Below are positions 1 to 32,574 of a DNA stretch of 62,169 nucleotides, one piece after another (positions within the stretch are counted from its first letter, which is position 1; each line of letters starts with the position of its first letter). The stretch lies in IMG/VR virus record IMGVR_UViG_3300011116_000128, positions 1 to 62,169 of that record. One strand, written 5' to 3'. The notes below the pieces were generated by a model. That model made no database searches. It was not told the DNA's origin and worked only from the letters and a program-made list of their open reading frames with translations. A program made the translations under genes and the position numbers. Source of the stretch: a virus. Taxonomy: Duplodnaviria; Caudoviricetes.

Positions 1-127
1 AAGGGTTAGCCCAGGGCCGTGCTGCATTTGTGCGCAATTTGGTTCAAGATGCCTACGGCACTTTCTTCTCATCGGCTACTTACGCAAAGCGGCCGGATGT
101 GATGGATCTGTACTCCAGCACAGACAT
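1..127. repeat. Terminal duplication, left copy (circular assembly overlap)
   Basis: 1-127 is identical to 62043-62169. The repeat lies inside an open reading frame, and 127 is a common assembler k-mer length. Confidence 0.97.
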
Positions 128-3100
128 GAAGTTTGCTGTTGAGAAGCTGGCTGATCTGGCTGATGCCATTAAGAATGGTGGCATCCCCATGCAGCAGACC
201 GTGGCAACCATGCTGTCTAAGGCTGGTCAATACATCCGCCGTGAGCGGACTTTTGCTGGCGTGTCTTATGACACCAAAGAAACCAAGGTCGACAAAGACA
301 CCGCTGAGAACATGGCCTCGTCCATGCGCCAGATCCTTGCGTTCTCCCGCGCCAAGGAAGAGGTTGTCAAAGGCATTCAAAAAGAGTTAGACCGCCAAGG
401 CGCTAAAGTCGGTGGAGAAGGCGAGAAGACGCAAGTCCAGTCTGCCAACTTTGGCTCAATCATGCACAACTTGATTGACCAGATGTTGCTATCGCTCAAA
501 GCGCAAGATTCTGTGCAACACGCTATTGATCGCTTAAAGGCCGGTGAAAAAGTAGTGATGACGGTCTCCAATACGATGGGTTCATTCCTGCAAAACTATG
601 CAGATGAAATGGGTCTTGTCACTGGTGATGCAGTGGATCTGTCTTTTGCTGATCTGTACCAGCGTTACCTTGAAAAGCAACGCATCATCAAAATTAAAAA
701 ACCGCGTGGCGCATCTGAAGAGTACCGGTTGACCGATCAAGATCTTGGCCCAGCTCTAACTGCTAGGTTCAATGAAATCAGGGACTTCATTGAAAGTTCC
801 GGCTTTGGCTCAGCCCCAATTTCCCCTATTGACTACTTGCACAGTGAGCTGAATAAAGCCGGGTACAAGACCGAGGAAATTACCGGACGCACTATCACGT
901 TGAATTACTCAAGTGGCAAGCCGCTGCTGACTTCACGTTCTGCCAACATCAAGCAGCGCGTGACTGCTGTTAAGAACTTTAACAATGGTAAAGCTGATGT
1001 CATCATCTTGAACCAAGCTGGATCTACAGGTCTGTCGCTTCATGCGTCCGAAAAGGTTGATGACAAGCGCAAGCGCCACATGATCATTGTTCAGCCAGAG
1101 AAGAACATTGATACGCATATGCAGATGCTTGGCCGCGTTCACCGCACGGGTCAGGTGGTAACTCCAGCCTACTCACAGATGATGGCTGATATCCCGGCCG
1201 AAATGCGCCCTGCTGCAGTCCTGCTGAAGAAGATGGCATCGCTCAATGCGAACACCACCGGCTCCCGTAAATCGGCTGTAGCTGCTGAAGGCGCGGTTGA
1301 TTTTATGAACGACTACGGCGGTCAAGTCGCCCAGGAATACTTGCGGGATAACCCTGATGTCTACGAAGACATTGGAGGCAAGCGGATTGTTGAGCTGGTG
1401 GATAACCCCACCGAAGCTACTGAAAACGACATTCGCCGCCTGACAGGTTACATTCCTATCCTGCCTATCAAGCAGCAGGAAGAGGTCTACAAAGACCTGA
1501 TTGAGCGTTACACCGATTTGGTTGCCCGCGAAGAAAGCATGGGCACAAACAAGCTGGAATCCAAGGCCAAGGACTTGGACGCCAAAACCATATCGTCTGT
1601 GCCCATCACCGAAGACAAGAACGTGCAGTCGGACTTTGGTAAGCCAGCCTTCATGGAACAAGTCGATGTCAAGCGCACAGTCAAGCCGTTCTCTAAGGAT
1701 GAGGTCAAAGAGCAGATCGAGGAAAACCTGGGTGGCAAAACTTCTAGCGAGTTTAGCAAGGATCTGCTGAAGGATCTGAACGACCGCGTCCGCACATACG
1801 TTGATGAGCGCGTCCAAGACGTCATTGAAGAAGATAATGTCAAGGCTGACACCATCAATAGTCAAGTCAGCGGGCAAGCTAGTCATGTTCGGTCTGTGAT
1901 TGAATCCTTCCCTATTGGCTCTCAAGTATCCATCAAGAATACCAATGGCGTGTTTGTGTATGGCGTGATCACCAACATCACAAACAGCAAAAAGACCAAA
2001 AACCCTGTTGCTGGCTCTGATTGGAAGATGCAAATTGCTCTAGCCAATGGGGATTCAAAAACCACTTCGTTGTCTTTTTCTCAGGTCGGAAGTTCCTACA
2101 CACTCAAGCGTGAGCAGGAAATCAACTGGCTTAACCCTGATACCTTGAAGGGTGAGTACATCCCGCTGATGGACTTGTTTGATAAGGGCGCTATTGCACG
2201 CCGGGAAAAACGTTGGATGGTGACCGGGAACATCCTGGCTGGGTATGCCGCCGTCAACAACATGGGGCAGATCATGTCCTATACAAAGGACGATGGTACT
2301 ACCGGCCAGGGCGTATTGATGCCCCGCACGTTTGACTTTGAGAAAGCCCAGAAAGAAGCCCCCGTCAAGCTCAAGAGCGCCAACAATGTGATGCAGTTCT
2401 TTGATGCGTTTGACAATGGAACTGTCAAAACAGAAGACGGCAACTTGCGCATTGTTAAGCGCAACAACACGTTTGTGTTTGCGGCTGAGCCATCCAAAAA
2501 ACTGGGTGGTACTTACTTCCTTGACCGCGGTCTCACCGACATTACCGGTGACTTCTACAAGCGCGGTGCTTTCATGGATGCTCGGTACATCAATGAAGAT
2601 ACCGCCATTAAAGCCATCCAATACCTATTGGCTACCAAGGGCGTGTCGCTAGAAGCAGCCAACAACAAAGAAGAAGCCCGCAAGCTGTTTGCGCCTAAAC
2701 CGTTTAAGCCTGGGTTAGCAAACGTGTCTTACAACAATGCCTATCACAGTGGCGATTTGGGATATGGGAAAGATACCGTTCTTGGAAGAATGTCAGGCAG
2801 AAGCACTGGGCATTTTGGTACAGGCGTTTATTTTGTTGGCAATCCACAGAAACTAAAAACTGTAATTAGGGATGAACGTCCAACTGAAAAAGTAAGCTTT
2901 GACGGATTTAATCTTGCGACTCCTAGAAACAATGATAACGCTCAGCGTTTACATGATGGTTTACGGCAAGTTAATCAGTTAGTTACTGCTGATTTGCAAA
3001 CCAAAGAAGCAGATGAAAAAATTAAACGTGCTGCATCTGACATTTGGTTTGCCGTTGGCGCTGGTAAATTTAGTGAAGAACAAATTCAACAAGCCATACG

Positions 3101-6100
3101 CAAAGCTTTAGCGGAAGCTGCTCCGCTGTATGAAGAGGTGTCTTATACATCAAAGTACGTTGAATCTGCGTCTACCCGTGTGATGAAAAAGCTGGGGTTT
3201 GATGGCATTGATGTTCGTGGCTTGAGCGAATTTGACAACACCACATATGGTTCAGTCATTTACCAAAAGCAATTCACTCCACGAGATAGCATTAACAGCT
3301 TGCAAAACCAAGGGCCTATTGGTCAACGTCTAAACCTGGACGAGAACCGGTTCATGGACCGGGCTGATTTGATCCGCCAGTATCAAAGCTTGCGTCAGAA
3401 GCGTGCCGGTGTCCTTGCTAAGTTTGCCAAAGGTGAAGCTGGCCTTAACGAACAACGAGCCATCACTGCCATCAATGAAACTGCTGGCGATTTAAGCAAT
3501 CAGATCAAGGCCAGCAAGCCAGAGCGCCGCAGCGCAAAAAACTTTTTTGCAGACGCTACTCGCGCATGGGATGCCGGTGAGATCAATGACGATGTGTACT
3601 CGGCTATCAAGACCCTGTACGAGCGCCATCCAAATGTGCTTGAAGGATTGAAATTCTCGGTCCGCATGAACCCTGAGAAAGACAGCAATGCCGCCGGGCA
3701 GTTCTTCTCACTGGCTCGGATCGTTCGTTTGTACAAAGGTACAACGGGAACTACAGATCCCGTCACCATTCGCCACGAAATTGTTCACTCGCTTGAACAG
3801 ATGATGTCTGGTGAAGCCTCGGCCGATTTGATCAATGACTGGGCCGACAAACTCGGCAAAGCCATCAAGACCAAAAAGTCCCCTGAAGCCCAGGTGTATT
3901 TCCGTGCAGTGCTGGAGTTCTTTGAAAACCCCACTGAGGATTCTTTTAAGAACGCACTGCGCCTGCTGCCAAGCTATGACTACTACCAATACCTGAACCC
4001 TTCCGAGTACTGGGCGGTCAACGCCGAGAAGCTGATGGCCCGCAAGCTTGGTTCTGGCTGGGACCGGTTTGTCTTGTCTGTCAAAGGTATGTATGAAGCC
4101 CTAAAGGACATGTTCGGGTTTGACAACCAGTACTTGATCCACAAAATCTTTGATGACGTTATGAATGGTCGTGGTGAGCGTTTCACCAAAGCCGCCCTGA
4201 ATGACTATGTTCTGCAGGAAAGCTTCGCTCTGATGAACCAGAACGTGCGCCGAAACTACAAAGGCGGACCAGCACCTCTGGCTACATGGCAAGAAGCCAA
4301 TGAGTCCAAGATAGACAACTTCATCTACAAGTGGCAAGACAAGCACGTTGACACCAAGCGTGTGGTTGAGGCCATCAAGAATGAAGTTGGCCGTATTGAG
4401 GATGCTTGGGATCCCTACCTCCAGGAAGAGCTGTTCCACGGCCGGACTGCCAAGCAGACAACGGATTTCCTCAAAGGCGAGCTGCGCCCATTCCTGGAAA
4501 AGATGGACAAGGATGGCATCAAGCTCCAAGACTTTGAAGAGTACCTCCATAACCGCCATGCTGAAGTACGCAATAATTTTATTGCAGCGCGGAACCCCGG
4601 GATGCCTGATGGCGGATCCGGTATTTACACGCAAGAAGCCCGTGACTACATGGCTGGCTTGGATCCTAAGACCAGAGCCAAGTACGAAGATCTAGCCACA
4701 ACGCTGGATAGGTTTGTCAAAGAAACCCAAGACCTTTTGGTTTCTTCCGGCCTGGAAAAGCAAGAGACTATTGATGCGTGGCGCAAGCTGCTGCCCTTCT
4801 ATGTCCCCCTGAACCGGGATGCTGACGAGCTGGATTACGTTAACCCTGTTAGCGGTATGGGCCAAGGGTTTGGCGTGCGCGGGGCCTTCTCAAAGACTGC
4901 CACCGGCTCTCTAAAAACAGTTGTAGACATTGTGGGCAACATCGCCCTGCAGCGTGAGCGTGCAATTGTGCGGGCTGAGAAGGCGCGTGTTGGCCGGGCG
5001 CTGTATGCCTTGGCTATTCAGAACCCCAACCCTAACTTCTGGATGCCCATCAACCCTGATGCCATCAAGAACAAGAAAAAACTGTATGCCGAAATGGTCA
5101 GCATGGGGATGAACCCAGCTGATGCAGACAACATTGTTCAAGAGCCACGGGTAGCCAGGATTGATCCAACTACCGGCTTGGTTCGTTACTCGGTCAATCC
5201 AGTCCTACGCAACTCACCAAACGTCTTGCCTATTCGCATTAACGGTGAAGACCGGTTTGTGTACTTTAACGCTGGCAATCCAAATGCCAAGCGCATGGTG
5301 GAGTCCTTAAAGAATCTTGATGTCCAGCAAATGGATGAGGCGCTCAGTTCTATCGCTGAAATTACGCGGTTCATTGCGGCAGCTAGTACTCAGTTCAACC
5401 CAGTGTTTGGTGCATTCAACTTTGTGCGTGACGTTCAAGGTGCTGCTATCAATCTTTCTAGCACGCCTATTGCTGATCGCAAGCTCCAGGTCATCAATGA
5501 CTCAAAGACGGCCGTCAGGGCTATCTATCGTGACCTCCGGGGCAAAGGTGCTACCACTCCAGCAATGCAGCAGTGGATTGACTTGTTTGAACAGTACCAA
5601 AAGGCTGGTGGGCAAACAGGATTCCGTGAGCAGTTCAGCAAAAGCAAAGAGAAGGCAACCATCGTCCAGCGTGAGCTGAGCCGCTTGAATCAAGGCAATC
5701 TCAAGAAAGCTACATATGCCGTTCTTGATTTGCTATCTGACTACAACGATGCAATGGAGAATGCTGTACGTTTAGCTGCATTCAAAGCTGCCCTGGATGA
5801 GGGGATTTCTGTAGACCGTGCTGCAAGCATAGCCAAGAACATCACCGTCAACTTCAACCGCAAAGGCGCAAACACTTCCAGCGCAGCCGCCCTGTATGCT
5901 TTCTTGAATGCCAGCATCCAAGGTACAGCTCGGCTCATTGGAACGCTATTTGTTAAAGACGCAAATGGCAAGATGAGCCTAAGCCCAGCCGGTAAGAAGA
6001 TTGTTGCGGGCGGTATGTTGCTTGGGGTAGCTCAGACGGCACTTTTGGCAATGGCCGGGTTTGGACCGGATGATCCTCCTGAGTGGGTTAAGTCTAAAAA

Positions 6101-6974
6101 CTTGGTTATTCCTACAGGGGATGGAAAGTACATCACTATTCCAATGCCATTGGGATTCAACGTATTCCCTAATGTTGGGCGTATTGTTTCTGAATACATG
6201 ATGGTTCAGTCCGGCGGCATGAAGGGTCGACGCGATCTTAAGAAGACCATTACCTACATTGGTTCCACAATTCTGGATGCATTCAATCCTTTGGGATCCA
6301 GCACGTTTGCTCAAACTCTGGCCCCCACTATTGTGGATCCATTCGTAGCAATTGCAGAAAACAAAGACGCATTTGGCCGTCCAATTTCCAAAGAAGACAA
6401 GGCGCTGGCCCCAACTCCTGGCTACAAACGCAGCCGCGAATCTGCTAATGGACTAAGCCAAGCATTAGCCTATGGCTTGAACTACATCACCGGAGGGGGA
6501 GATAAAGGTATTGGCTTGGTAAGCCCAACGGCTGACCAAATTAGCTATGTTGCAGGTCAATACAGTGGTGGTGTTGGAAGGCTGGGAATCCAAACGGCTG
6601 AATATGTAAAGTCAAAAGTAGTCGGAGAAGAAGTCCAGCCGTATCAAGTTCCTATCGTTGGAAAAATGTATGGGGACATCAACACCCCGGCCGCTATCTC
6701 TGGAAAGTTCTATGACAACATCACCGAAATGTCCAAACATGAGAACATCATCAAAGGCATGAAGGGCAAAGGCGTAACTGAGTACTACCAGGAAAACCCT
6801 GAAGCTAGATTGTGGCAACGGTCCAACTACGTTGAAAACCAGATTGCCCGTTTAAAGAAAGAGAAGAAGGCATTGTCTGAACGCAATGCACCCGAAGCTC
6901 AGCTTAAGCGTAAAGACGAGCAGATCAAACAGCTAATGGAATCCTTCAACAAGGAAGTCACAAAACGCCAATGA
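3..6974 (+). CDS. Giant polyvalent (DarB-like) protein, C-terminal half: strawberry-notch helicase C domain, ART-like domain, zincin metallopeptidase, LPD38-like C-terminus
   Basis: In frame with 56963-62169 across the junction. Motifs: IILNQAGSTGLSLHA and QMLGRVHRTGQ (Sno-type helicase C); AYH..GTGVYF..GFDGI (ART-like, ~2739-3265); RHEIVH (3771-3788) followed by SEYWA (zincin); YITIPMPLGFN and DAFGRPI (LPD38-like). Confidence 0.9.
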   Translation, partial: GLAQGRAAFVRNLVQDAYGTFFSSATYAKRPDVMDLYSSTDMKFAVEKLADLADAIKNGGIPMQQTVATMLSKAGQYIRRERTFAGVSYDTKETKVDKDTAENMASSMRQILAFSRAKEEVVKGIQKELDRQGAKVGGEGEKTQVQSANFGSIMHNLIDQMLLSLKAQDSVQHAIDRLKAGEKVVMTVSNTMGSFLQNYADEMGLVTGDAVDLSFADLYQRYLEKQRIIKIKKPRGASEEYRLTDQDLGPALTARFNEIRDFIESSGFGSAPISPIDYLHSELNKAGYKTEEITGRTITLNYSSGKPLLTSRSANIKQRVTAVKNFNNGKADVIILNQAGSTGLSLHASEKVDDKRKRHMIIVQPEKNIDTHMQMLGRVHRTGQVVTPAYSQMMADIPAEMRPAAVLLKKMASLNANTTGSRKSAVAAEGAVDFMNDYGGQVAQEYLRDNPDVYEDIGGKRIVELVDNPTEATENDIRRLTGYIPILPIKQQEEVYKDLIERYTDLVAREESMGTNKLESKAKDLDAKTISSVPITEDKNVQSDFGKPAFMEQVDVKRTVKPFSKDEVKEQIEENLGGKTSSEFSKDLLKDLNDRVRTYVDERVQDVIEEDNVKADTINSQVSGQASHVRSVIESFPIGSQVSIKNTNGVFVYGVITNITNSKKTKNPVAGSDWKMQIALANGDSKTTSLSFSQVGSSYTLKREQEINWLNPDTLKGEYIPLMDLFDKGAIARREKRWMVTGNILAGYAAVNNMGQIMSYTKDDGTTGQGVLMPRTFDFEKAQKEAPVKLKSANNVMQFFDAFDNGTVKTEDGNLRIVKRNNTFVFAAEPSKKLGGTYFLDRGLTDITGDFYKRGAFMDARYINEDTAIKAIQYLLATKGVSLEAANNKEEARKLFAPKPFKPGLANVSYNNAYHSGDLGYGKDTVLGRMSGRSTGHFGTGVYFVGNPQKLKTVIRDERPTEKVSFDGFNLATPRNNDNAQRLHDGLRQVNQLVTADLQTKEADEKIKRAASDIWFAVGAGKFSEEQIQQAIRKALAEAAPLYEEVSYTSKYVESASTRVMKKLGFDGIDVRGLSEFDNTTYGSVIYQKQFTPRDSINSLQNQGPIGQRLNLDENRFMDRADLIRQYQSLRQKRAGVLAKFAKGEAGLNEQRAITAINETAGDLSNQIKASKPERRSAKNFFADATRAWDAGEINDDVYSAIKTLYERHPNVLEGLKFSVRMNPEKDSNAAGQFFSLARIVRLYKGTTGTTDPVTIRHEIVHSLEQMMSGEASADLINDWADKLGKAIKTKKSPEAQVYFRAVLEFFENPTEDSFKNALRLLPSYDYYQYLNPSEYWAVNAEKLMARKLGSGWDRFVLSVKGMYEALKDMFGFDNQYLIHKIFDDVMNGRGERFTKAALNDYVLQESFALMNQNVRRNYKGGPAPLATWQEANESKIDNFIYKWQDKHVDTKRVVEAIKNEVGRIEDAWDPYLQEELFHGRTAKQTTDFLKGELRPFLEKMDKDGIKLQDFEEYLHNRHAEVRNNFIAARNPGMPDGGSGIYTQEARDYMAGLDPKTRAKYEDLATTLDRFVKETQDLLVSSGLEKQETIDAWRKLLPFYVPLNRDADELDYVNPVSGMGQGFGVRGAFSKTATGSLKTVVDIVGNIALQRERAIVRAEKARVGRALYALAIQNPNPNFWMPINPDAIKNKKKLYAEMVSMGMNPADADNIVQEPRVARIDPTTGLVRYSVNPVLRNSPNVLPIRINGEDRFVYFNAGNPNAKRMVESLKNLDVQQMDEALSSIAEITRFIAAASTQFNPVFGAFNFVRDVQGAAINLSSTPIADRKLQVINDSKTAVRAIYRDLRGKGATTPAMQQWIDLFEQYQKAGGQTGFREQFSKSKEKATIVQRELSRLNQGNLKKATYAVLDLLSDYNDAMENAVRLAAFKAALDEGISVDRAASIAKNITVNFNRKGANTSSAAALYAFLNASIQGTARLIGTLFVKDANGKMSLSPAGKKIVAGGMLLGVAQTALLAMAGFGPDDPPEWVKSKNLVIPTGDGKYITIPMPLGFNVFPNVGRIVSEYMMVQSGGMKGRRDLKKTITYIGSTILDAFNPLGSSTFAQTLAPTIVDPFVAIAENKDAFGRPISKEDKALAPTPGYKRSRESANGLSQALAYGLNYITGGGDKGIGLVSPTADQISYVAGQYSGGVGRLGIQTAEYVKSKVVGEEVQPYQVPIVGKMYGDINTPAAISGKFYDNITEMSKHENIIKGMKGKGVTEYYQENPEARLWQRSNYVENQIARLKKEKKALSERNAPEAQLKRKDEQIKQLMESFNKEVTKRQ

Positions 6975-12875: not shown

Positions 12876-13063
12876 GCGAGAAACCGGAACCATCTGCTGA
12901 AGACTGGATTATTTTTCGCCTGCTCAACGCATGGCACGAAAATGCTGGCTTTTTGGGATTTGATCTTACTGCGCGTAGGACTTTAGTTTTTATGTTCAGA
13001 AAGCTGGGCAAAGACACTGTGCTTGATATGGCTAAACAACTGGAAGAGGAGAGCAAAGCATGA
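12872..13063 (+). CDS. Hypothetical protein
   Basis: GGAG RBS, ATGA coupling. Confidence 0.6.
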   Translation: MSEKPEPSAEDWIIFRLLNAWHENAGFLGFDLTARRTLVFMFRKLGKDTVLDMAKQLEEESKA

Positions 13064-13191
13064 ACGACGATGACGACAGCGGCGGTGAATTCTTCTTCGA
13101 CCTGCTGAAAACGTTGGTAGCCCTGTTTGTTTTTATCCTGTTCCTCATGGTGATGGGAACGATCATAGGAGGGCTGCTCTCATGGTTCTGA
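13060..13191 (+). CDS. Small membrane protein (43 aa, not in track)
   Basis: MNDDDDSGGEFFFDLLKTLVALFVFILFLMVMGTIIGGLLSWF; GGAG RBS. Confidence 0.6.
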   Translation: MNDDDDSGGEFFFDLLKTLVALFVFILFLMVMGTIIGGLLSWF

Positions 13192-13394
13192 CTATCTACA
13201 TCCCGGTGCTGTTCGTGTGCCTGAACACTCAGTGTTCATTCGCGCAGACATCTAAGCACTACACCCGCGAGACCGAATGCATGGCGGTATTGGAAGAGTA
13301 CATGAGGCGGGTGCGGGAGATGGCAGCTAGTGCGAATCAGACTGTCACCCAGCTAAAGGGCGTGTGCATTGTCGCAAAGGATGGAATGCTATGA
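13182..13394 (+). CDS. Hypothetical Cys-containing protein
   Basis: AGGAGG RBS; CxxxxC..EC..C pattern. Confidence 0.6.
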   Translation: MVLTIYIPVLFVCLNTQCSFAQTSKHYTRETECMAVLEEYMRRVREMAASANQTVTQLKGVCIVAKDGML

Positions 13395-13409
13395 ACAAAG
13401 GCCAAAGAC

Positions 13410-13643
13410 ATGACTGAACCATACGGGTACTGCATGCAAGGATATAGGTACATCTTTGGCAAGGGCAAGTTTGAGCTTAGCTCTGCCGTGGGGGGTTTGT
13501 ACCCCATCTACCTTGAACCAACGCATGAAGGGCAAGAACCGTTTGCCTGCATTGACGCCGATGCAGGACTGTATTTGTTCTACCTAGAAGACATTAAAAG
13601 AACGTACTACCAACTAACCCCTGTATACAAGGAGACACTATGA
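13410..13643 (+). CDS. Hypothetical protein with two EP...P(I/V)Y modules
   Basis: Internal duplication EPYGY..YPIY / EPFAC..TPVY. Confidence 0.55.
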   Translation: MTEPYGYCMQGYRYIFGKGKFELSSAVGGLYPIYLEPTHEGQEPFACIDADAGLYLFYLEDIKRTYYQLTPVYKETL

Positions 13644-13969
13644 AAACACCTGAGGATGAAGCATTCGACGAGTTGGAGCGTAGGCGAGGCGGCTTTCAAG
13701 CCAAGCGGCAGATGGCTGCGGACAAGTTGGGCCAACTACTGGCAAACAACAACATGCCTGATACACCTACTGCTAGGGCGGTATACAGAAAGATGTTGGA
13801 GCGCGTTGAAGACGACGATGACATACAGGACTACAAGAAGCCGTGGGTAGGGCTGACTGATGATGAGATTAAAGAAATCATTGGGCCGTACGGAGCCACG
13901 CCCATCAAGGGCTATACCCGCAAACTGTTTGACCAGATTGAAGCAAAACTTAGGGAGAAGAACACATGA
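13640..13969 (+). CDS. Modular hypothetical protein (DDDIQDYKKPWVGLTD + IEAKLREKN)
   Basis: AAGGAG RBS; shares modules with neighbouring genes. Confidence 0.75.
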   Translation: MKTPEDEAFDELERRRGGFQAKRQMAADKLGQLLANNNMPDTPTARAVYRKMLERVEDDDDIQDYKKPWVGLTDDEIKEIIGPYGATPIKGYTRKLFDQIEAKLREKNT

Positions 13970-14196
13970 AATCCAAAACCCCCGAGCCGCTGTACCAACA
14001 GATTGTTCCAGTCGAAGACCGAGGCAAGGTAGCGGTAAGTAAGTACTACCGAGTCAACCAAAACATGGGTGGGCTGGGGCACAGCAGACACCCATACCTT
14101 CTTGAGTGCAACTTGCGAATCGACTTTGGCCCGGACGGTGGGATACACAACGTCGAATGGAGTAACAAAGTTTTAGAGGAGAAGAACAATGGATAA
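13966..14196 (+). CDS. Hypothetical protein
   Basis: Cassette junctions at both ends. Confidence 0.65.
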   Translation: MKSKTPEPLYQQIVPVEDRGKVAVSKYYRVNQNMGGLGHSRHPYLLECNLRIDFGPDGGIHNVEWSNKVLEEKNNG

Positions 14197-14392
14197 GACA
14201 TACGAAGCAATCATTGCAGGGGCTAAGGCAGACGGGTCTTGGGATAAAAAATACCCCTACGAAGACGATGACATACAGGACTACAAGAAGCCGTGGGTAG
14301 GGCTGACGGATGAGGATTGCAAAGGCATGAATGCTGGCGACAAAGTGGTGGCAATGTGGGCTAACAGAATCCTCAAGGAGAAGAACACATGA
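14189..14392 (+). CDS. Modular hypothetical protein (MDKTYEAII + WVGLTDE)
   Basis: Shared modules; GGAG RBS. Confidence 0.75.
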   Translation: MDKTYEAIIAGAKADGSWDKKYPYEDDDIQDYKKPWVGLTDEDCKGMNAGDKVVAMWANRILKEKNT

Positions 14393-14589
14393 TTGAAGTA
14401 GGCGACATTGTGCAAGTAGAGCCAAGTCAAAAGCTATTTGGAGGCTGCATGGTAGTGGTGACCGAGTTGAAAGATTGGGGCATTCAAGGCTATGTTCAGT
14501 CTGCTGGTGTAGAGGGGCAACAATACATCCGACTTAAAACAGAGCAGTATGAGCAAACAGGCGGGAAAGCAGTGTGGGTAATTAAATGA
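14389..14589 (+). CDS. Small SH3/KOW-like beta-barrel protein
   Basis: IEVGDIVQV..GCMVVVTE..WGIQGYV pattern. Confidence 0.65.
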   Translation: MIEVGDIVQVEPSQKLFGGCMVVVTELKDWGIQGYVQSAGVEGQQYIRLKTEQYEQTGGKAVWVIK

Positions 14590-14885
14590 ACAGAAATGTA
14601 AATTCTGAAGAAGGCCTCCACTCATGCGGCTATCACGATGGAAAGCGGGCGACACAGCCAGCGCAGGAGCCTGTGGCGTGGTATGACAAACACGGAATGA
14701 TTACGCATGACCCATTTGAAGGGGTAACAGCCCTCTACACCACCCCACCACAGCGCACATGGGTAGGGCTGACGGATGAAGAAATCAGAGACTGCCTTGG
14801 CCCTGAAGCTGTTCGTATTCCTCCGGGTTGGAGCAAGTTAACCCGAGCCATTGAAGCCAAACTAAAGGAGAAGAACAATGACTAA
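14586..14885 (+). CDS. Modular hypothetical protein (QEPVAW..LYTTPP + WVGLTDEE + IEAKLKEKN)
   Basis: Shared modules. Confidence 0.75.
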   Translation: MNRNVNSEEGLHSCGYHDGKRATQPAQEPVAWYDKHGMITHDPFEGVTALYTTPPQRTWVGLTDEEIRDCLGPEAVRIPPGWSKLTRAIEAKLKEKNND

Positions 14886-15141
14886 CAGACGCGGATTCTT
14901 TGGCTCCATGCTTGCGGCAGCGATGGCTCCTGCCATTGTGCGGGCAGAGTCCTTGATGAAAATCTATGTGCCGCCGCAGGACATCATTACCGATGTTCAG
15001 TTGGAAGAGGCGCTGTATCAAAATTTGAGCGCGGGGTACAGTCGTAACTTGGCGAAGGCAAGCATCCTCACACGGAAGCAGTTGATAGATGAATTACTCC
15101 CCAAGTTGAACAAACTTTTTGAATTGGAGTACGACAAATGA
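14878..15141 (+). CDS. Tat-signal protein carrying two major-capsid-like segments
   Basis: TNRRGFF + hydrophobic stretch + VRA; residues 42-61 and 64-85 align with MCP residues 94-113 and 3-24. Confidence 0.75.
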   Translation: MTNRRGFFGSMLAAAMAPAIVRAESLMKIYVPPQDIITDVQLEEALYQNLSAGYSRNLAKASILTRKQLIDELLPKLNKLFELEYDK

Positions 15142-15314
15142 TTGAAGATGATGACAACATACAGGATTACAAAAAACCTTGGGTCGGGCTGACAGATGAG
15201 GAGGTAGAACTCTACTGGGATTGGGAAGATTTTCAAACAGGAGCGGGTCGTTCAACCATATTCAAAATGGTCAGGGACATTGAAGCTAAGTTAAGGAGAA
15301 AGAACAATGGATAA
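15138..15314 (+). CDS. Modular hypothetical protein (58 aa, not in track)
   Basis: MIEDDDNIQDYKKPWVGLTDEEVELYWDWEDFQTGAGRSTIFKMVRDIEAKLRRKNNG; GGAG RBS. Confidence 0.75.
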   Translation: MIEDDDNIQDYKKPWVGLTDEEVELYWDWEDFQTGAGRSTIFKMVRDIEAKLRRKNNG

Positions 15315-21341: not shown

Positions 21342-21623
21342 TCAATCGTCCATGTCACCATACTCGGCGGCTTGCTCATCAATCGCCGACTCACGCGCAG
21401 ACACATACGTTGGGCTGGGTCTGTCCTCGGGTTTGTCTTCCAAGAATAAAACTTCGTCATCAATTGCGGCCCGTCCAATGTCAGGGCCACCATCCTGCTC
21501 CATGAATCGCGTAACGATCTCGTATTCGGTTTCGTGGCACCCAGCCACCTCCTTTGCGTGGGCGGCATCTTCAGCCTCCACCTCCACTTCAACGACATAA
21601 AACTGGCGGACTAGGAATTTCAT
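21342..21623 (-). CDS. Acidic hypothetical protein
   Basis: VEVEAEDAAHA motif; very acidic. Confidence 0.65.
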   Translation of the reverse strand: MKFLVRQFYVVEVEVEAEDAAHAKEVAGCHETEYEIVTRFMEQDGGPDIGRAAIDDEVLFLEDKPEDRPSPTYVSARESAIDEQAAEYGDMDD

Positions 21624-22300
21624 CGTATCCTCACAATCGGTATTACGCGACTTGCGCGATCATTAACAAGGGTAGTCTTCGCGCCGTGCGCCCGAAACCC
21701 TACGATGGATTTGCGGTCGGCTTTTTGGCACAGTTGGCACACAGCACAGGTCAGGTCTCGGGTCTGTGCGGGACAGATCACGATGGGCCGACCGGCTGGT
21801 GTGTAGGAATGCTCAGGGGTATCCACCGGCACGATGCAAACGACAGGCCCAGCCTGCAGGTCTGCCAGCCGGTCTGCCTCTCCAGCATCATCTGCGGACA
21901 GGTTAATGGTGTAGCCCCATGCGTTCGCATGACGGATCCACCGAATAGCCTGTGCGGATTTCTTGTGGGAGTAGGTGAATCCCCTGCGCCCCATGTTGGC
22001 TCGGACAATCAGCCCCAGTTCGTAGGCATCCACCCACTCACCCTTGCCGACAATGTCGCCCACCACCTCGCCTCGCCACAGTTGACCTTCCGGCAGCGCG
22101 GCTATCTTGGCGGCTAACTGGCGCGTGGTCAGGCCGCTGCGGTCAGCTCGGGTCCAAGCCAGCGAAGTGTGGAAGTCATCCCCGTAGCATCCCTTGCGGT
22201 ACTGGGGGCACGATGGAGGGCAGGATTTGCGTTCCCGATAGGTCACGGGAATCGGCCCGACTTTGCGGTTCCCGCTGCGCTCAACGAAGAGGGTTTTCAT
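21620..22300 (-). CDS. Cys-rich DUF7227/gp88-like protein (radical-SAM-like)
   Basis: SGNRKVG..SCPPSCP..CYG, GFTYSH, CPAQ..CAVCQLC, GFRAHG. Confidence 0.7.
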   Translation of the reverse strand: MKTLFVERSGNRKVGPIPVTYRERKSCPPSCPQYRKGCYGDDFHTSLAWTRADRSGLTTRQLAAKIAALPEGQLWRGEVVGDIVGKGEWVDAYELGLIVRANMGRRGFTYSHKKSAQAIRWIRHANAWGYTINLSADDAGEADRLADLQAGPVVCIVPVDTPEHSYTPAGRPIVICPAQTRDLTCAVCQLCQKADRKSIVGFRAHGAKTTLVNDRASRVIPIVRIR

Positions 22301-22541
22301 AGCTGGGTAGCTTGCGGACAAAACTGTCTCTGTCGGTGCGAACACTCTTGATATTGATGTCTTCACCGGCTGCGGTCTTGGCATTCGCCCACACGGATGC
22401 ATCGCAGTCCTCTTCAAGATAGGCAATGTCACCCGCTCGGTAAGAGTACGGGCTAATGCGATCTGCGATCTTGAGGCGGTGCAACTCAGTCATGGGCACT
22501 TCGATCCACCCGTGGCCCGGGTCTTCGTGGTACTTATACAT
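22281..22541 (-). CDS. Conserved early protein (DPGHGW..LEEDCD)
   Basis: Motif seen in phage and plasmid leading-region proteins. Confidence 0.75.
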   Translation of the reverse strand: MYKYHEDPGHGWIEVPMTELHRLKIADRISPYSYRAGDIAYLEEDCDASVWANAKTAAGEDINIKSVRTDRDSFVRKLPSYENPLR

Positions 22542-28835: not shown

Positions 28836-29032
28836 TTGACAAGTACCTACAACATCTGTCAAACAGGATAGATGACAAAGTATCCCAACTTCAAATAGCC
28901 CTGGCGGATGGCAACGCCAAGGATTATGCGGAGTACACAAAGATGTGCGGAGAGGTTAAAGGTCTGCTCACCGCACGTTTATTCATAACAGACCTACATG
29001 AAAGATTAAAAACCGATGACGATAATGAATGA
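28832..29032 (+). CDS. Hypothetical protein
   Basis: Conserved post-portal small ORF (DYAEY..CG.VKGL). Confidence 0.7.
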   Translation: MIDKYLQHLSNRIDDKVSQLQIALADGNAKDYAEYTKMCGEVKGLLTARLFITDLHERLKTDDDNE

Positions 29033-29429
29033 ATTGGACTTAGCAAAGGCTGTTGACTTGTCGCAGTTAATGCATAAAGAGCCAGAGCAAAAAGCCAAGC
29101 AGCTACCAAAGCCTGTTGGCTACCGCATCTTGTGTGCGATTCCAGAAGTGGAAGAAACCATTGAAGGCTCAAGCCTCATTAAGTCATCAGAAATGATGCG
29201 CACTGAGGAACTGTTGACTACGGTGTTATTCGTAGTAGACATGGGGCCTGATTGTTACGCGGACACCAGTCGATTCCCGACGGGACCCTACTGTCAACGC
29301 GGAGACTTTGTTTTGGTTCGGCCACATGCTGGGACAAGACTAGTCATTCACGGCAAAGAGTTTCGCATCATCAACGACGATTCAGTCGAAGGTGTAGTCG
29401 AAGATCCACGCGGCATCCGACGCAAATAA
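29025..29429 (+). CDS. groES: GroES-like co-chaperonin
   Basis: PKPVGYRIL, GDFVL, G.EFRIINDD.V.GVV. Confidence 0.8.
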   Translation: MNELDLAKAVDLSQLMHKEPEQKAKQLPKPVGYRILCAIPEVEETIEGSSLIKSSEMMRTEELLTTVLFVVDMGPDCYADTSRFPTGPYCQRGDFVLVRPHAGTRLVIHGKEFRIINDDSVEGVVEDPRGIRRK

Positions 29430-29438
29430 GGAACACAA

Positions 29439-30350
29439 ATGTCAAACGAATTCAAATTCCCTGACGAACAGGAAGATGAAAAACTTGACGATGACATCAT
29501 CGTTGAAGTTGAAGATAACACTCCCCCAGAAGACCGTAATAAAACTCCATTGCCTGAAAAAGTTCGGGAAGAGCTTTATAACGACGAGCTGGAGGATTAC
29601 TCTACCAAGGTCAAGAAAAAACTTCTTCAGATGAAGAAGCTGGCGCATGACGAGCGTAGAGAAAAAGATGCGGCTTTGCGTGAGCAAAATGAAGCCATTG
29701 CATTCGCCAAGAAACTGATGGAAGAGAATAAAAAGCTCAAAGCCAATCTGTCCAACAGCGAAAACAATGTCCTTTTTTCTGTTACCAAAACAGTAGAAAT
29801 GGAATTGGATGCGGCCAAAAAAGCCTATCGTGAAGCCTATGATTCAGGCGATACCGACAAGGTAATGGAAGCCCAGGAGCGTCTTACCCAGGCAACATTA
29901 AAGGTTGATAAGGTTAAGAGTTTCAAGCCAGCTCCACCGCCACAGGAAGAAACTGTGGTACAAACCCCCCAGCCCCAAGTCCAACGGCCTCCTGTAGACC
30001 CAACTGCAGAAGCTTGGCAACAAGAAAACCCTTGGTTTGGGCAAGATAAGGAAATGACTGCTTTGGCTCTAGGTGTTCACGACGCCATGCTGAGCGAAGG
30101 AGTTAGGCCCTCATCACAGGAGTATTACTCCCGGCTTAACGCCACTATCCGAAAACGTTTCCCAGAGAAATTTGAGGAAGCTGAGGAACAAGAAGATCGG
30201 CCCAGCCGAAAAAGCTCGGTGGTTGCACCAGCTACACGGACTACATCCGCAAAACGAGTAAAGCTTACCGTTGGTGAGTTGAACTTGGCAAAGAAATTTA
30301 AACTTACACCGGAGCAATTTGCTGCGGAAAAAATCAAATTAGGAGCCTAA
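29439..30350 (+). CDS. Putative scaffolding protein
   Basis: Acidic coiled coil; W..ENPWF motif; lies before the MCP gene. Confidence 0.65.
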   Translation: MSNEFKFPDEQEDEKLDDDIIVEVEDNTPPEDRNKTPLPEKVREELYNDELEDYSTKVKKKLLQMKKLAHDERREKDAALREQNEAIAFAKKLMEENKKLKANLSNSENNVLFSVTKTVEMELDAAKKAYREAYDSGDTDKVMEAQERLTQATLKVDKVKSFKPAPPPQEETVVQTPQPQVQRPPVDPTAEAWQQENPWFGQDKEMTALALGVHDAMLSEGVRPSSQEYYSRLNATIRKRFPEKFEEAEEQEDRPSRKSSVVAPATRTTSAKRVKLTVGELNLAKKFKLTPEQFAAEKIKLGA

Positions 30351-31662: not shown

Positions 31663-32574
31663 ATGGCTATTTCACGTGCCCAGCTGCTTAAAGAGCTGCT
31701 TCCAGGGCTTAACGCCTTGTTTGGTCTGCAGTACAAGACCTACGATCAAGAACACGAAGAGATCTACGAAACCGAGACCTCTGAGCGTTCTTTTGAAGAG
31801 GAAACTAAACTGTCTGGCTTCAGTGCTGCACCTGTCAAAAACGAGGGTTCCGCCCTTGCTTATGACAATGCTCAAGAGGCATGGACTGCTCGTTACAACC
31901 ACGAAACCATTGCTTTGGGCTTCTCCCTGACGGAAGAGGCAATCGAAGACAACCTGTATGACAGCTTGTCCGCTCGTTACACCAAAGGTCTGGCCCGTGC
32001 TATGGCGTACACCAAGCAGGTTAAAGCTGCTGCTGTTATCAACAACGGTTTTGCATCCAACTATGTTGGCGGCGACGGCGTATCGTTGTTCAGCACTGCC
32101 CATCCATTGACCAATGGTGGAACCAACAGCAATCGTCCTACCACTGCTGCCGATTTGAATGAGACTTCCCTGGAAGCCGCAGTCATTCAGATCGCTGCTT
32201 GGACTGATGAGCGCGGTTTGCTGATTGCAGCCAAGCCTAAGAAGCTGATTGTTCCTCCTGCTCTGATGTTCGTTGCTACTCGTCTGTTGGAAACCAGCCT
32301 GCGCGTTGGTACTACCGACAACGATATCAATGCGTTGAAGAACAACGGTTCAATCCCTGGCGGCTACGCCGTTAACCACTACTTGACCGACACTAACGGC
32401 TGGTACTTGACCACTGACGTTCCAAACGGCATGAAGCACTTTGTTCGTACCCCTCTTTCGAATGGTATGGACGGTGACTTTGACACTGGTAACGTCCGTT
32501 ACAAGTCCCGTGAGCGTTATTCGTTCGGCTGGTCTGACCCACTGGGCATGTTCGGTTCTCCCGGCTCGTCCTAA
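31663..32574 (+). CDS. Major capsid protein (Mu gpT-like, HK97 fold)
   Basis: MAISRAQLLKELLPGLNALFG, DGVSLFSTAHP, LIVPPAL, RERYSFGW; strong codon bias; terminator follows. Confidence 0.92.
   Translation: MAISRAQLLKELLPGLNALFGLQYKTYDQEHEEIYETETSERSFEEETKLSGFSAAPVKNEGSALAYDNAQEAWTARYNHETIALGFSLTEEAIEDNLYDSLSARYTKGLARAMAYTKQVKAAAVINNGFASNYVGGDGVSLFSTAHPLTNGGTNSNRPTTAADLNETSLEAAVIQIAAWTDERGLLIAAKPKKLIVPPALMFVATRLLETSLRVGTTDNDINALKNNGSIPGGYAVNHYLTDTNGWYLTTDVPNGMKHFVRTPLSNGMDGDFDTGNVRYKSRERYSFGWSDPLGMFGSPGSS

What the first reader, a model, noticed from the sequence alone, without database searches (positions are those of the whole stretch)
14878..15141. Tat-exported mini-protein built from two rearranged pieces of the phage's own major capsid protein (candidate capsid decoy)
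Seen: the 87-aa ORF starts with a twin-arginine signal (TNRRGFF, hydrophobic stretch, VRA/ES site). Residues 42-61, LEEALYQNLSAGYSRNLAKA, match MCP 94-113, IEDNLYDSLSARYTKGLARA (10/20 identical). Residues 64-85, LTRKQLIDELLPKLNKLFELEY, match MCP 3-24, ISRAQLLKELLPGLNALFGLQY (13/22 identical). The two segments are in reverse order relative to the MCP. The gene lies 17 kb from the head genes, inside the shuffled accessory array. Known: some anti-phage systems are triggered by capsid protein (CapRel-SJ46; Lit via the T4 Gol peptide), and Tat exports folded proteins and can carry bound partners. Inference: it could be a decoy that binds a capsid sensor and tethers or exports it, or a dominant-negative inhibitor of a competing phage's head assembly. 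I know of no described example.
Basis: partly seen in the sequence, partly recalled or inferred. Interest (0 to 1): 0.88.

Follow-up and report, generated by a model that had tools for sequence, protein, structure and literature searches.

The report
Tat-leader mini-protein mimicking capsid N-arm
A freshwater phage carries a small, conserved accessory gene that joins an export-type (twin-arginine) leader to copies of two helices of its own capsid protein, and it turns out to be one member of a large, undescribed phage family that repeatedly fuses this same leader to pieces of virion proteins.

Summary
ORF 14878-15141 (+, 87 aa) is real. Its residues 64-85 and 37-67 match residues 3-24 and 89-119 of the phage's major capsid protein (MCP, 31663-32574), each with 0 of 2000 shuffles reaching the score.

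The gene is not debris. It has 50 homologous clusters, and dN/dS is 0.11 for the leader and 0.23 for the N-arm-like part.

The new finding is about the first ~37 residues. They have twin-arginine (Tat) signal features. They form a nearly invariant leader shared by 118 protein clusters at E<=1e-10 and 2445 at E<=1e-3. It was found in 53 viral loci, in almost no bacterial genomes, and in 0 of 5 cultured relatives.

The cargo behind the leader is very diverse:
- LamG domains.
- Tail-spike pieces.
- MCP pieces from several unrelated MCP families, most often the N-arm.

Published procapsid structures show the N-arm helix and the spine helix forming the coiled coil where scaffolding protein docks. 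My best reading (about 0.3) is therefore a Tat-leader-directed mimic of that immature-capsid surface. It would capture something that recognises the surface: a host capsid sensor, or a rival's or satellite's scaffold-like protein.

Export, binding and function are all untested. I found no described equivalent.

The parts
14865..14870 (+). Shine-Dalgarno-like AAGGAG, 7 nt upstream of the ATG
   Evidence: Read from the sequence.
14878..15141 (+). Mini-protein gene, 87 aa plus stop
   Evidence: ORF list. 50 homologous clusters. dN/dS is below 1 in all three segments. Contigs of four public runs hold it.
14878..14946 (+). Residues 1-23: Tat-type signal-like part of the leader (RR, uncharged A-rich stretch, V-R-A)
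   Evidence: RR is invariant in 224 of 224 family proteins. Pfam TAT_signal hits 59 of 144 relatives. The window ORF itself is below threshold.
14947..14988 (+). Residues 24-37: conserved peptide after the putative cleavage site (E-S-L-M-K-I-Y-V-P-P...), also part of the family-wide leader
   Evidence: Invariant or nearly invariant columns in A1 and A2, including M27, V31 and P32. Synonymous codons are saturated.
14986..15078 (+). Residues 37-67: segment similar to MCP 89-119 (start of the predicted spine helix). Variable within the family.
   Evidence: BLASTP 12/31, E 3e-5. 0 of 2000 shuffles reach the score. dN/dS 0.44. Contigs of runs X11 and X14 replace 14982-15058 with 95 other letters.
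15067..15132 (+). Residues 64-85: segment similar to the MCP N-arm (MCP 3-24)
   Evidence: BLASTP 13/22, E 8e-7. 0 of 2000 shuffles reach the score. hhalign 93.7%, E 1.9e-7. dN/dS 0.23.
31663..32574 (+). Major capsid protein gene (303 aa), the source family of both pieces
   Evidence: phrog_371 E 1.8e-21 and Pfam Mu-like_gpT E 1.5e-8. More than 8000 homologous clusters.
31669..31734 (+). MCP residues 3-24 (N-arm)
   Evidence: Called the N-arm by position in the HK97 fold and by analogy with P22 (residues 2-30) and JBD30 (residues 6-25). This is inference; no reliable model of this MCP was obtained.
31927..32019 (+). MCP residues 89-119 (end of a P-domain strand and first part of the long predicted spine helix)
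   Evidence: The assignment rests on HK97-fold topology and is inference.
29439..30350 (+). Putative scaffolding protein (303 aa), a candidate partner of the N-arm surface
   Evidence: Sits between the portal and MCP genes. It is highly charged and has a basic C-terminal tail. phrog_28737, function unknown. The scaffold role is inferred, not shown.

Best explanation
SHOWN
- The gene encodes a conserved 87-aa accessory protein with two functional halves.
- Residues 1-37 are a leader with all the sequence hallmarks of a twin-arginine (Tat) signal peptide, followed by a conserved 14-residue peptide.
- This leader is shared, almost unchanged at the protein level but with scrambled synonymous codons, by a large family of small proteins (61-250 aa among the 150 best hits). 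The members whose origin could be traced lie almost entirely on viral contigs.
- Residues 37-87 are diverged copies of two helices of the phage's own HK97-fold capsid protein: the N-arm and the start of the spine helix.
- Other members of the leader family independently carry pieces of their own kind of MCP, most often the N-arm. Others carry pieces of tail spikes, or LamG domains.

INFERRED
- In procapsids of other phages, the N-arm helix packs on the spine helix as a coiled coil. That pair is where scaffolding protein docks.
- The mini-protein is therefore a two-helix mimic of the immature (unassembled or prohead-state) face of the capsid protein.
- I propose that it acts as bait. It binds a protein that recognises that face. 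Candidates are a host immune sensor of capsid protein, or a scaffold-like protein of a co-infecting phage or satellite.
- The Tat leader would then take the bait, and perhaps its bound partner, to the Tat translocon, the membrane or the periplasm, removing the partner from the cytoplasm.
For: The gene is real and under selection:
- 50 homologous clusters.
- dN/dS is 0.11 for the leader, 0.44 for the middle and 0.23 for the N-arm-like part, from 8 sequences.

Leader:
- The A1 profile finds 2445 clusters at E<=1e-3 and 118 at E<=1e-10 among 1.84 billion representatives. Most match profile positions 1-41 only.
- In 48 distinct DNAs, invariant residues use all their synonymous codons, and 63% of same-residue codon pairs differ in codon.
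- Tat-like features in 224 unique proteins: RR in 224, a hydrophobic residue two or three positions after RR in 219, an uncharged stretch of 13 or more in 196, that stretch ending in K/R in 216, and small residues at -3/-1 in 203.
- Pfam TAT_signal hits 59 of 144.
- Language-model neighbours include Tat-signal proteins at 0.81-0.87, which is a lead only.

Phage origin:
- 53 viral loci.
- 4 loci in 185,579 species' genomes, one of which is an ordinary Tat enzyme.

Capsid mimicry is recurrent, not accidental:
- In a scan of 221 cargos against 5 MCP references, the whole A1 family plus 20 other proteins match MCP at z>=5. The N-arm dominates.
- A control with 10 non-MCP references totalling 4872 aa gave 4 hits.
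- Pfam finds PhiKZ_MCP in 5 of 144 and GP7 MCP in 1 of 144.
- Two of the reference proteins belong to the P22 coat family.
- In 5 of 10 leader genes across 9 genomes, the cargo matches a larger ORF of the same genome: MCP twice and tail spike once.

Structural rationale from papers:
- The P22 scaffold helix-turn-helix docks on N-arm residues N4, D14, E15 and E18, plus R101 of the P-domain (PMC9965877, passages).
- The prohead-state N-arm helix forms a coiled coil with the spine helix in phi29, P22, HK97, 80alpha, T7 and T5, and it binds scaffold (PMC11922011, passages).
- The AF2 model of the mini-protein has helices at 39-58 and 66-80, but at low confidence.

Accessory status:
- 0 of 5 cultured relatives have the gene.
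- It lies in a cassette array whose units are swapped in natural populations.
Against: - No experiment or prediction shows export, cleavage or any binding.
- The window ORF does not reach Pfam TAT_signal or TIGR01409, with no hit at E<=1. Only 3 of 31 A1 members hit at E<=1.
- A leader conserved far beyond what Tat recognition is known to need, including an invariant Met three residues past the putative cleavage site, suggests it does something more than or other than export.
- Much of the family's cargo is not capsid-like: LamG in 23 of 144, pectate-lyase-like in 3 of 144, most unassigned. A capsid-specific role therefore cannot be the family's general function.
- Half of the own-genome tests found no parent protein.
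- The spine-like segment is variable, and it is lost or replaced in many family members.
- A mimic of a sensor's trigger would be expected to activate the sensor rather than silence it.
- The assignment of MCP 3-24 and 89-119 to the N-arm and spine helix rests on fold topology and analogy. The AF2 model of the MCP failed (pLDDT 31), and no solved relative was found by sequence.
Confidence: 0.3

Rival explanations
1. Periplasmic or envelope function unrelated to capsids. The family would be a set of Tat-exported early proteins acting in the envelope, for example in superinfection exclusion, receptor or glycan masking, or interference with an incoming phage's ejection machinery. Virion-protein pieces would be reused only as convenient folding units that mature in the cytoplasm, and here the capsid-derived helices would simply be a helical hairpin.
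For: - Tat-like features are family-wide.
- The cargo includes lectin-type LamG domains (23 of 144) and tail-spike N-terminal coils. These could bind surface glycans.
- The gene sits among early or replication genes in this phage. In other phages it sits at moron-like positions, such as upstream of the portal or primase gene.
- The conserved peptide right after the putative cleavage site would become the mature N-terminus, a plausible handle for a periplasmic partner.
Against: - It does not explain why MCP N-arms are captured again and again from unrelated MCP families. It also does not explain why the N-arm-like part keeps the residues it shares with the MCP under purifying selection.
- No envelope partner is known.
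Confidence: 0.22
2. The leader is the active part and the cargo is largely filler. The nearly invariant leader might occupy or jam the host Tat translocon, bind a chaperone, or act as a membrane-active peptide. The downstream part would be whatever in-frame piece recombination supplied, often from the phage's own large structural genes.
For: - The leader is the most constrained part (dN/dS 0.11). It is the only part shared across the family.
- Cargos are very diverse, and they are often incomplete domains.
- Natural contigs show recombination joints exactly at the gene start and inside the middle segment.
Against: - The N-arm-like segment has dN/dS 0.23 and nearly invariant columns.
- MCP pieces are far more frequent than pieces of terminase, portal, helicase or primase.
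- Captured N-arms start at MCP residue 2-3, so they are complete.
Confidence: 0.15
3. Assembly or virion component that is not exported. The leader would be a targeting or anchoring peptide, for example to the membrane site of procapsid assembly, to the scaffold core, or into the capsid like the capsid-targeting sequences of T4 internal proteins. The N-arm-like helix would let the protein join or regulate the phage's own capsid assembly.
For: - A conserved N-terminal tag with variable cargo recalls T4 internal proteins (recalled, not checked here).
- In some phages the leader gene lies between the terminase and portal genes (L032, L040, L044).
- The cargo resembles virion proteins.
Against: - In this phage the gene is in the early or replication region, 16.5 kb from the head genes.
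- It is absent from 5 of 5 cultured relatives. Only about 50 clusters carry it, against more than 8000 MCP clusters. It is therefore not a core assembly factor.
- The leader fits Tat rules closely.
Confidence: 0.1
4. Dead recombination fragment with no function of its own.
For: It lies in a recombining cassette array, and it is made of rearranged pieces of another gene.
Against: - There are 50 homologous clusters down to 45% identity, all with an intact frame.
- dN/dS is well below 1.
- It has a good ribosome-binding site and translational coupling to its neighbours.
Confidence: 0.02

Closest known systems
Scaffold-site competitors of phage satellites (SaPI1 CpmB, SaPIpT1028 Rcm)
   Same: They are small helical proteins that exploit the scaffold/MCP docking interface by mimicry, in order to interfere with capsid assembly. 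Sources: PMC12409344 (abstract read) and PMC5644958 (search listing only).
   Different: - They mimic the scaffold side and bind MCP. This protein copies the MCP side.
- They have no signal-like leader.
- No cargo, including this one, matched the window's putative scaffold in my control.
Capsid-protein triggers of abortive-infection systems (T4 Gol peptide with Lit; MCP with CapRel-SJ46)
   Same: A short part of an HK97-fold MCP is the recognised element.
   Different: - Those are parts of the real MCP that activate a host defence. Here a separate gene encodes the piece and adds a Tat-like leader.
I read no paper on it here, and no sensor is known for this phage.
Tat 'hitchhiker' export (for example the periplasmic hydrogenase small subunit carrying a signal-less large subunit)
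   Same: A small subunit with a Tat signal that could carry a bound partner across the membrane. A cluster of [Fe] hydrogenase small subunits is among the language-model neighbours at 0.87, which is a lead only.
   Different: Those are cellular redox enzymes with cofactors. No partner of this protein is known. The mechanism is recalled, not tested.
T4 internal proteins with a conserved capsid-targeting sequence and hypervariable cargo
   Same: The architecture is the same: a short conserved N-terminal tag, a highly variable downstream part, and accessory loci that recombine.
   Different: The T4 tag is about 10 residues, is not Tat-like, and is cut by the prohead protease (recalled). Here the tag is about 37 residues with twin-arginine features, and no prohead protease was identified.
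Ordinary bacterial Tat signal peptides (Pfam PF10518, TIGR01409)
   Same: It shares the RR motif, a weakly hydrophobic uncharged stretch, a basic residue in the c-region and small residues at -3/-1. The leader HMM also picks up a normal Tat-signal enzyme in an Acidobacteriota genome.
   Different: Cellular Tat signals vary freely between orthologues. This leader is nearly invariant through and beyond the putative cleavage site, across phages as different as 62-kb and 322-kb genomes.

Membership tests
Tat signal peptide (PF10518 / TIGR01409) | Twin-arginine motif followed by hydrophobic residues (consensus S/T-R-R-x-F-L-K, recalled) | tested here: met
   N-R-R-G-F-F-G at residues 3-9. RR is present in 224 of 224 family proteins, and 219 of 224 have a hydrophobic residue two or three positions after RR.
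Tat signal peptide (PF10518 / TIGR01409) | Uncharged, moderately hydrophobic h-region of 13 or more residues, and a c-region with small residues at -3/-1 | tested here: met
   16 uncharged residues with mean Kyte-Doolittle 1.73, then V-R-A. Across the family: 196 of 224 have a stretch of 13 or more, 216 of 224 end it in K/R, and 203 of 224 have small residues at -3/-1. These are rules of thumb scripted by me, not SignalP or TatP.
Tat signal peptide (PF10518 / TIGR01409) | Reaches the curated profile models | tested here: not met
   The window ORF has no PF10518 or TIGR01409 hit at E<=1. In A1, 3 of 31 hit at E<=1. In the wider family, 59 of 144 hit at E<=0.01 with a best of 1.4e-5. Two relatives score 21.1 bits against a cut-off of 22.7.
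Tat signal peptide (PF10518 / TIGR01409) | Tat-dependent export and cleavage | not testable with these tools
   Needs localisation in tat+ and tatC- cells. The host is unknown.
HK97-fold major capsid protein (Mu-like gpT, phrog_371) | Complete fold with N-arm, E-loop, P-domain and A-domain | tested here: not met
   The protein is 87 aa. Only two segments of 22 and 31 residues match. It has no MCP hit in Pfam or PHROGs. It is derived from the family but is not a member.
HK97-fold major capsid protein (Mu-like gpT, phrog_371) | Homology of the C-terminal segment to the MCP N-arm | tested here: met
   BLASTP E 8e-7. 0 of 2000 shuffles reach the score. hhalign 93.7%, E 1.9e-7. The family profile hits the MCP N-terminus in 4 of 5 related phages.
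Scaffold mimics (CpmB/Rcm type) | Resemblance to the scaffold's MCP-binding helix | tested here: not met
   No cargo, including the window protein, matched the window's putative scaffold at z>=5. The resemblance is to the MCP side.
Decoy of a capsid-sensing defence system | Binds and neutralises a host sensor of MCP | not testable with these tools
   No host genome or sensor is known for this uncultured phage.
Capsid-targeted internal proteins (T4 type) | Tag cleaved by a prohead protease; protein present in virions | not tested
   The proteins I scanned revealed no prohead protease, but I did not scan every ORF. There is no proteomics for this phage.

The most novel reading that the evidence does not exclude
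Phages of many lineages would carry a modular 'bait plus disposal tag' system. A nearly invariant Tat leader is fused to short copies of exactly those virion-protein surfaces that are exposed only before assembly: the MCP N-arm/spine coiled coil, tail-spike N-terminal coils and LamG domains. The bait captures host immune sensors, or a rival's or satellite's assembly factors, that recognise these surfaces. The Tat pathway then exports or tethers the complex, clearing it from the cytoplasm. That would be protein-level counter-defence by hitchhiker export.
Probability: 0.12. Interest if true: 0.95.

Novelty: categorically new. Interest (0 to 1): 0.8.

Why it matters
Capsid protein is one of the commonest triggers of bacterial immunity, and the scaffold-docking face of the capsid protein is the target of satellite piracy. 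A dedicated phage gene that copies just that face would be a new kind of player in these conflicts.

Beyond this gene, the work uncovers a large and apparently undescribed family. It has at least 118 clusters at 50% identity with strong matches. Its members join one almost invariant twin-arginine leader to pieces of virion proteins. It occurs in phages from 62-kb genomes to 322-kb jumbo genomes, and this phage type is found in freshwater metagenomes of many studies.

Even if the decoy idea is wrong, the family raises two open questions:
- What is a Tat-type leader doing on lytic-phage proteins?
- Why do phages keep separate, selected copies of fragments of their own structural proteins?

Both questions can be tested directly with reporter fusions and pull-downs.

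Tried and rejected
- Complex prediction of the MCP (alignment A4) with mini-protein residues 24-87 (A1) gave no verdict. The score was 0.00 against a mark of 0.32, and the controls were not run. I count this neither for nor against binding.
- The AF2 model of the MCP from an 11-row alignment failed (pLDDT 31.3), so I could not show the N-arm/spine packing in this MCP.
- The AF2 model of the mini-protein has low confidence (pLDDT 60.6, pTM 0.22). I used it only for helix positions.
- PDB sequence searches with the MCP alone and with its profile found no relative.
- tblastn against 50,697 GenBank phage records found no leader with any of three queries: the ORF, a 40-aa leader, and a leader-LamG protein. 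BLAST's low-complexity filter may mask the Ala-rich leader, so this is weak evidence of absence.
- PHROGs has no family for the mini-protein or for 10 other leader proteins.
- NCBIfam gave only sub-threshold hits.
- The weak Pfam DUF7510 hit (E 0.045) was not seen in the wider family, so I dropped it.
- The search for longer fused forms found only three leader-LamG proteins of 165-171 aa.
- The cluster look-up gave no names.
- The 900-927-aa ORF that matches the cargo in three jumbo records stayed unidentified.
- The idea that the invariant Met-27 is an internal start was rejected. The codons before it vary freely and form no conserved ribosome-binding site.
- The idea that the leader is a conserved DNA element was rejected for the same reason.
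- No RNA holder was listed for the stretch. The four runs I laid are contigs and say nothing about expression.
- Supplementary files of the papers were not seen. Figures of the P22 and phi29 papers that show the N-arm/spine geometry were not available to me.
Full report
1. THE OBSERVATION

The window is a complete 62,169-bp virus record with direct terminal repeats. ORF 14878..15141 (+) encodes 87 aa. An AAGGAG box lies 7 nt before the ATG. The start overlaps the stop of the upstream ORF, and the stop overlaps the next ATG, so the gene sits in a tightly coupled operon.

The MCP is 31663..32574 (303 aa; phrog_371 E 1.8e-21; Pfam Mu-like_gpT). BLASTP gives two separate matches. The first is mini 64-85 against MCP 3-24 (13/22, E 8e-7). 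The second is mini 37-67 against MCP 89-119 (12/31, E 3e-5). In 2000 shuffles of each segment, and 2000 shuffles of the MCP, none reached the observed score.

Three further checks agree:
- A six-frame search of the genome with the ORF finds only the ORF itself and those two MCP places.
- A profile-profile comparison of the family with an MCP alignment gives 93.7% probability and E 1.9e-7 over 33 N-arm columns.
- The family profile hits the MCP N-terminus in 4 of 5 cultured relatives: Pag-Yong1, DSL-LC04, HTVC023P and 023Pt_psg01, but not Caulobacter phage RW.

2. A REAL GENE UNDER SELECTION

The large protein collection holds 50 homologous clusters, 45-98% identical. In the alignment of 31 of them (A1):
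- Residues 1-34 are almost invariant.
- The middle is variable, with insertions and deletions.
- The C-terminal N-arm-like part keeps nearly invariant columns (T65, R66, Q67, Q68, L74, P75, F81, E84).

For the eight members whose DNA I hold, pooled pairwise dN/dS is 0.11 for residues 1-34, 0.44 for 35-62 and 0.23 for 63-87. The pairs are not independent, so these are rough figures.

The 77-aa versions in the collection (P0005, P0007) reflect a gene caller starting at Met-11. Conservation of residues 1-10 and the ribosome-binding site favour the longer form.

3. THE LEADER DEFINES A LARGE PHAGE FAMILY

A profile of A1 was searched against 1.84 billion representative proteins. It found 2445 clusters at E<=1e-3, 118 at E<=1e-10 and 1 at E<=1e-30. 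Most match profile positions 1-41 only. Part of the weak tail may be ordinary Tat signals.

The 150 listed proteins are 61-250 aa. I aligned 144 of them (A2). Columns R4, R5, F7 and M27 are invariant, and L8, A17, P18, A19, V21, L26, V31 and P32 are 90% or more conserved. Beyond about position 40 nothing is shared.

The conservation is at the protein level. In 48 distinct DNAs of the leader, invariant Ala and Pro use all four codons. Arg and Ser use both codon families. 63% of same-residue codon pairs differ in codon.

By simple rules the leader looks like a Tat signal. Of 224 unique proteins:
- 224 have RR.
- 219 have a hydrophobic residue two or three positions after RR.
- 196 have an uncharged stretch of 13 or more residues.
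- In 216 that stretch ends in K or R.
- 203 have small residues at -3/-1.

Pfam TAT_signal is hit by 59 of 144 at E<=0.01. The window ORF itself is not hit, and only 3 of 31 A1 members are hit at E<=1. TIGR01409 is not reached either.

The leader was found in 53 loci of the viral contig collection, on contigs of 4 kb to 322 kb. It was found in only 4 loci of one genome each for 185,579 species. One of those is an ordinary Tat-signal enzyme. None of five cultured relatives has it. Three tblastn searches of GenBank phages found none, with the caveat that low-complexity masking may hide it. Most genomes have one leader gene. Some have two to four, partly in tandem.

4. WHAT THE LEADER CARRIES

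Pfam on the 144 proteins finds:
- Laminin_G_3 in 23.
- PhiKZ_MCP in 5.
- Pectate-lyase-like in 3.
- DUF7483 in 2.
- GP7 MCP in 1.
- fn3 in 1.

NCBIfam gives weak N4-gp56 MCP hits for two proteins.

I then aligned 221 cargos (the part after the leader) against five MCPs from my loci, each with 200 shuffles. The five were two gpT-like MCPs, two of the P22 coat family (Pfam E 1e-39 and 1.5e-48) and one phrog_9953 major head protein.

At z>=5, the whole A1 family and 20 further proteins match an MCP:
- 8 carry the N-arm of P22-type coats, from about residue 2-3 up to residue 56.
- 2 carry a gpT-type N-arm about 90% identical to the real one (P0063, P0152). This is a capture separate from A1.
- 2 carry the N-arm region of the third MCP type.
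- 3 carry the strand plus start of the spine helix (L024, L031, P0074).
- 5 carry other parts (L026, L049, L052, P0068, P0116).

The same test with ten non-MCP proteins (terminase, portal, helicase, primase, ParB, scaffold and others; 4872 aa) gave 4 hits.

In nine genomes with ten leader genes, five cargos match a larger ORF of the same genome, with 0 of 300 shuffles reaching the score:
- MCP in two.
- A tail-spike or tail-fibre protein in one.
- A 517-aa protein of unknown function in one.
- A 2012-aa protein in one, borderline at z 5.1.

The other five found no parent. In three jumbo records the cargo matches a 900-927-aa ORF that I could not identify.

5. WHY THESE TWO PIECES

In P22, the N-arm is residues 2-30 and is a helix in the procapsid. 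The scaffold's C-terminal helix-turn-helix is held by N-arm residues N4, D14, E15 and E18, and by R101 of the P-domain, which contains the long helix (PMC9965877, passages read).

[quoted passage not shown] The authors say this also holds in P22, HK97, 80alpha, T7 and T5, and that the prohead-state N-arm binds scaffold in several phages (PMC11922011, passages read).

In the Mu-like phage JBD30, N-arm residues 6-25 are a helix in the procapsid (PMC11445458, passages).

By position and fold topology, MCP 3-24 here is the N-arm. MCP 89-119 is the end of a P-domain strand plus the start of the spine helix. This is inference: my MCP model failed, and no solved relative was found by sequence.

A spine-like helix joined by a short linker to an N-arm-like helix would rebuild that coiled coil. 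AF2 places helices at 39-58 and 66-80 with low confidence. The reversed order does not matter for a two-helix hairpin.

Compared with the MCP, the family's N-arm copy keeps R, Q, the LLP and LN motifs, F and Y. It replaces three small residues of the MCP (G15, A18, G21) with charged or polar ones. That pattern fits a free-standing helix that keeps one face. This last point is my inference.

6. CONTEXT

The gene lies in a + strand block of small ORFs upstream of a ParB-like gene (my reading of its sequence, no family hit), a helicase and a Toprim protein. ERF and PD-(D/E)XK genes lie on the opposite strand nearby.

Four neighbouring ORFs share an acidic-then-'PWVGLTDEE' motif and a K/R-E/R-K-N tail. 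In other phages the leader gene sits just upstream of the portal gene or of a primase gene. Its position is therefore moron-like, not fixed.

Near-identical DNA is held by runs labelled freshwater, lake, sediment or viral metagenome from 11 studies, one of which may be the source of the record. Contigs of four runs show units of the array replaced at gene boundaries, for example 14188->14878 with 324 other letters. In two of those runs the mini-gene's middle, 14982-15058, is replaced by 95 letters, in frame.

7. MECHANISM AND ODDS

Shown:
- It is a selected accessory gene.
- It has a Tat-like leader shared family-wide.
- Its cargo is homologous to the MCP N-arm and spine helix.
- MCP pieces were captured recurrently and independently in the family.

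Inferred:
- The cargo mimics the prohead-state, scaffold-docking face of the MCP.
- The leader sends it to the Tat translocon or the periplasm.

My best reading (0.3) is bait plus disposal tag. The bait would capture a protein that recognises that face, either a host capsid sensor or a rival's or satellite's scaffold-like protein.

Rivals:
- An envelope function with virion pieces reused as folding units (0.22).
- A leader-only function with filler cargo (0.15).
- A non-exported assembly or virion role (0.1).
- Dead fragment (0.02).
- The remainder is unassigned.

Against the best reading:
- Nothing shows export or binding.
- The ORF misses the curated Tat models.
- The leader is conserved beyond what export should need, including an invariant Met after the putative cleavage site.
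- Much of the family's cargo is not capsid-like.
- A trigger mimic might activate a sensor rather than silence it.

8. NOVELTY

Seven full-text searches found no description of a Tat-type leader on phage proteins carrying capsid pieces. The terms combined twin-arginine or Tat signal with phage, capsid, superinfection exclusion, moron, decoy, N-arm mimic, and the related pelagiphage HTVC023P. I saw only search listings, apart from the papers named above.

The nearest known things are:
- Scaffold mimics of satellites (abstract of PMC12409344).
- Capsid-peptide triggers of Lit and CapRel (recalled).
- Tat hitchhiking (recalled).
- T4 capsid-targeting tags (recalled).

Noticed in passing
window 13640-13969, 14189-14392, 14586-14885, 15138-15314 (+): Four small neighbouring ORFs are paralogues. 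They share an acidic run, then 'IQDYKKPWVGLTDEE'-like residues and a C-terminal 'EAKL(K/R)EKN' tail, with ATGA-type overlaps between genes. No Pfam or PHROG family was found for the two I scanned.
   Followed up: partly
window 14188-14878 and 14981-15059: Metagenome contigs replace whole units of the array at gene boundaries (14188->14878 with 324 other letters). They also replace the middle of the mini-gene in frame (77 nt replaced by 95 nt). Depth spikes over 14692-14943 show that the conserved gene ends, and the first part of the leader, are shared by many different contigs.
   Followed up: partly
window 3-6974 (+) and 56963-62167 (+): A 2323-aa ORF is open at the record's start, and a 1735-aa ORF is open at its end. 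Because the record has terminal repeats, they may be one giant gene of about 4000 aa running across the ends.
   Followed up: no
window 29016-29429 (+): A GroES-like co-chaperonin gene (phrog_3188, E 4.3e-9) lies between the portal gene and the putative scaffold gene.
   Followed up: no
window 30819-31652 (+): A 277-aa Ala/Thr/Gly-rich ORF sits directly upstream of the MCP gene, with no family hit. A homologue sits next to the MCP gene in L038.
   Followed up: no
L054 8685-10540; L019 3623-4199; G001 (L020, L071, L074): Some phages carry two to four leader genes, partly in tandem, each with different cargo. One protein (P0167) has two leaders in a row, as if two neighbouring genes had fused.
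   Followed up: partly
P0185 (leader protein) against the L026 portal 13046-15268: In the non-MCP control, one cargo matched a portal protein (score 63, z 8.0). Portal pieces may therefore also occur as cargo.
   Followed up: no
L032, L026, L057, P0056, P0068 cargos: Several cargos share a 'GD-x-x-T-I-x-G' type motif. It also occurs at about residues 250-262 of the P22-type coat of L026 (z 6.9 for L026's own cargo). This may be another recurrent capsid-derived piece.
   Followed up: no
window 21620-22432 (-): A strong DUF7227 protein (E 1.3e-65) lies on the opposite strand within the replication region.
   Followed up: no
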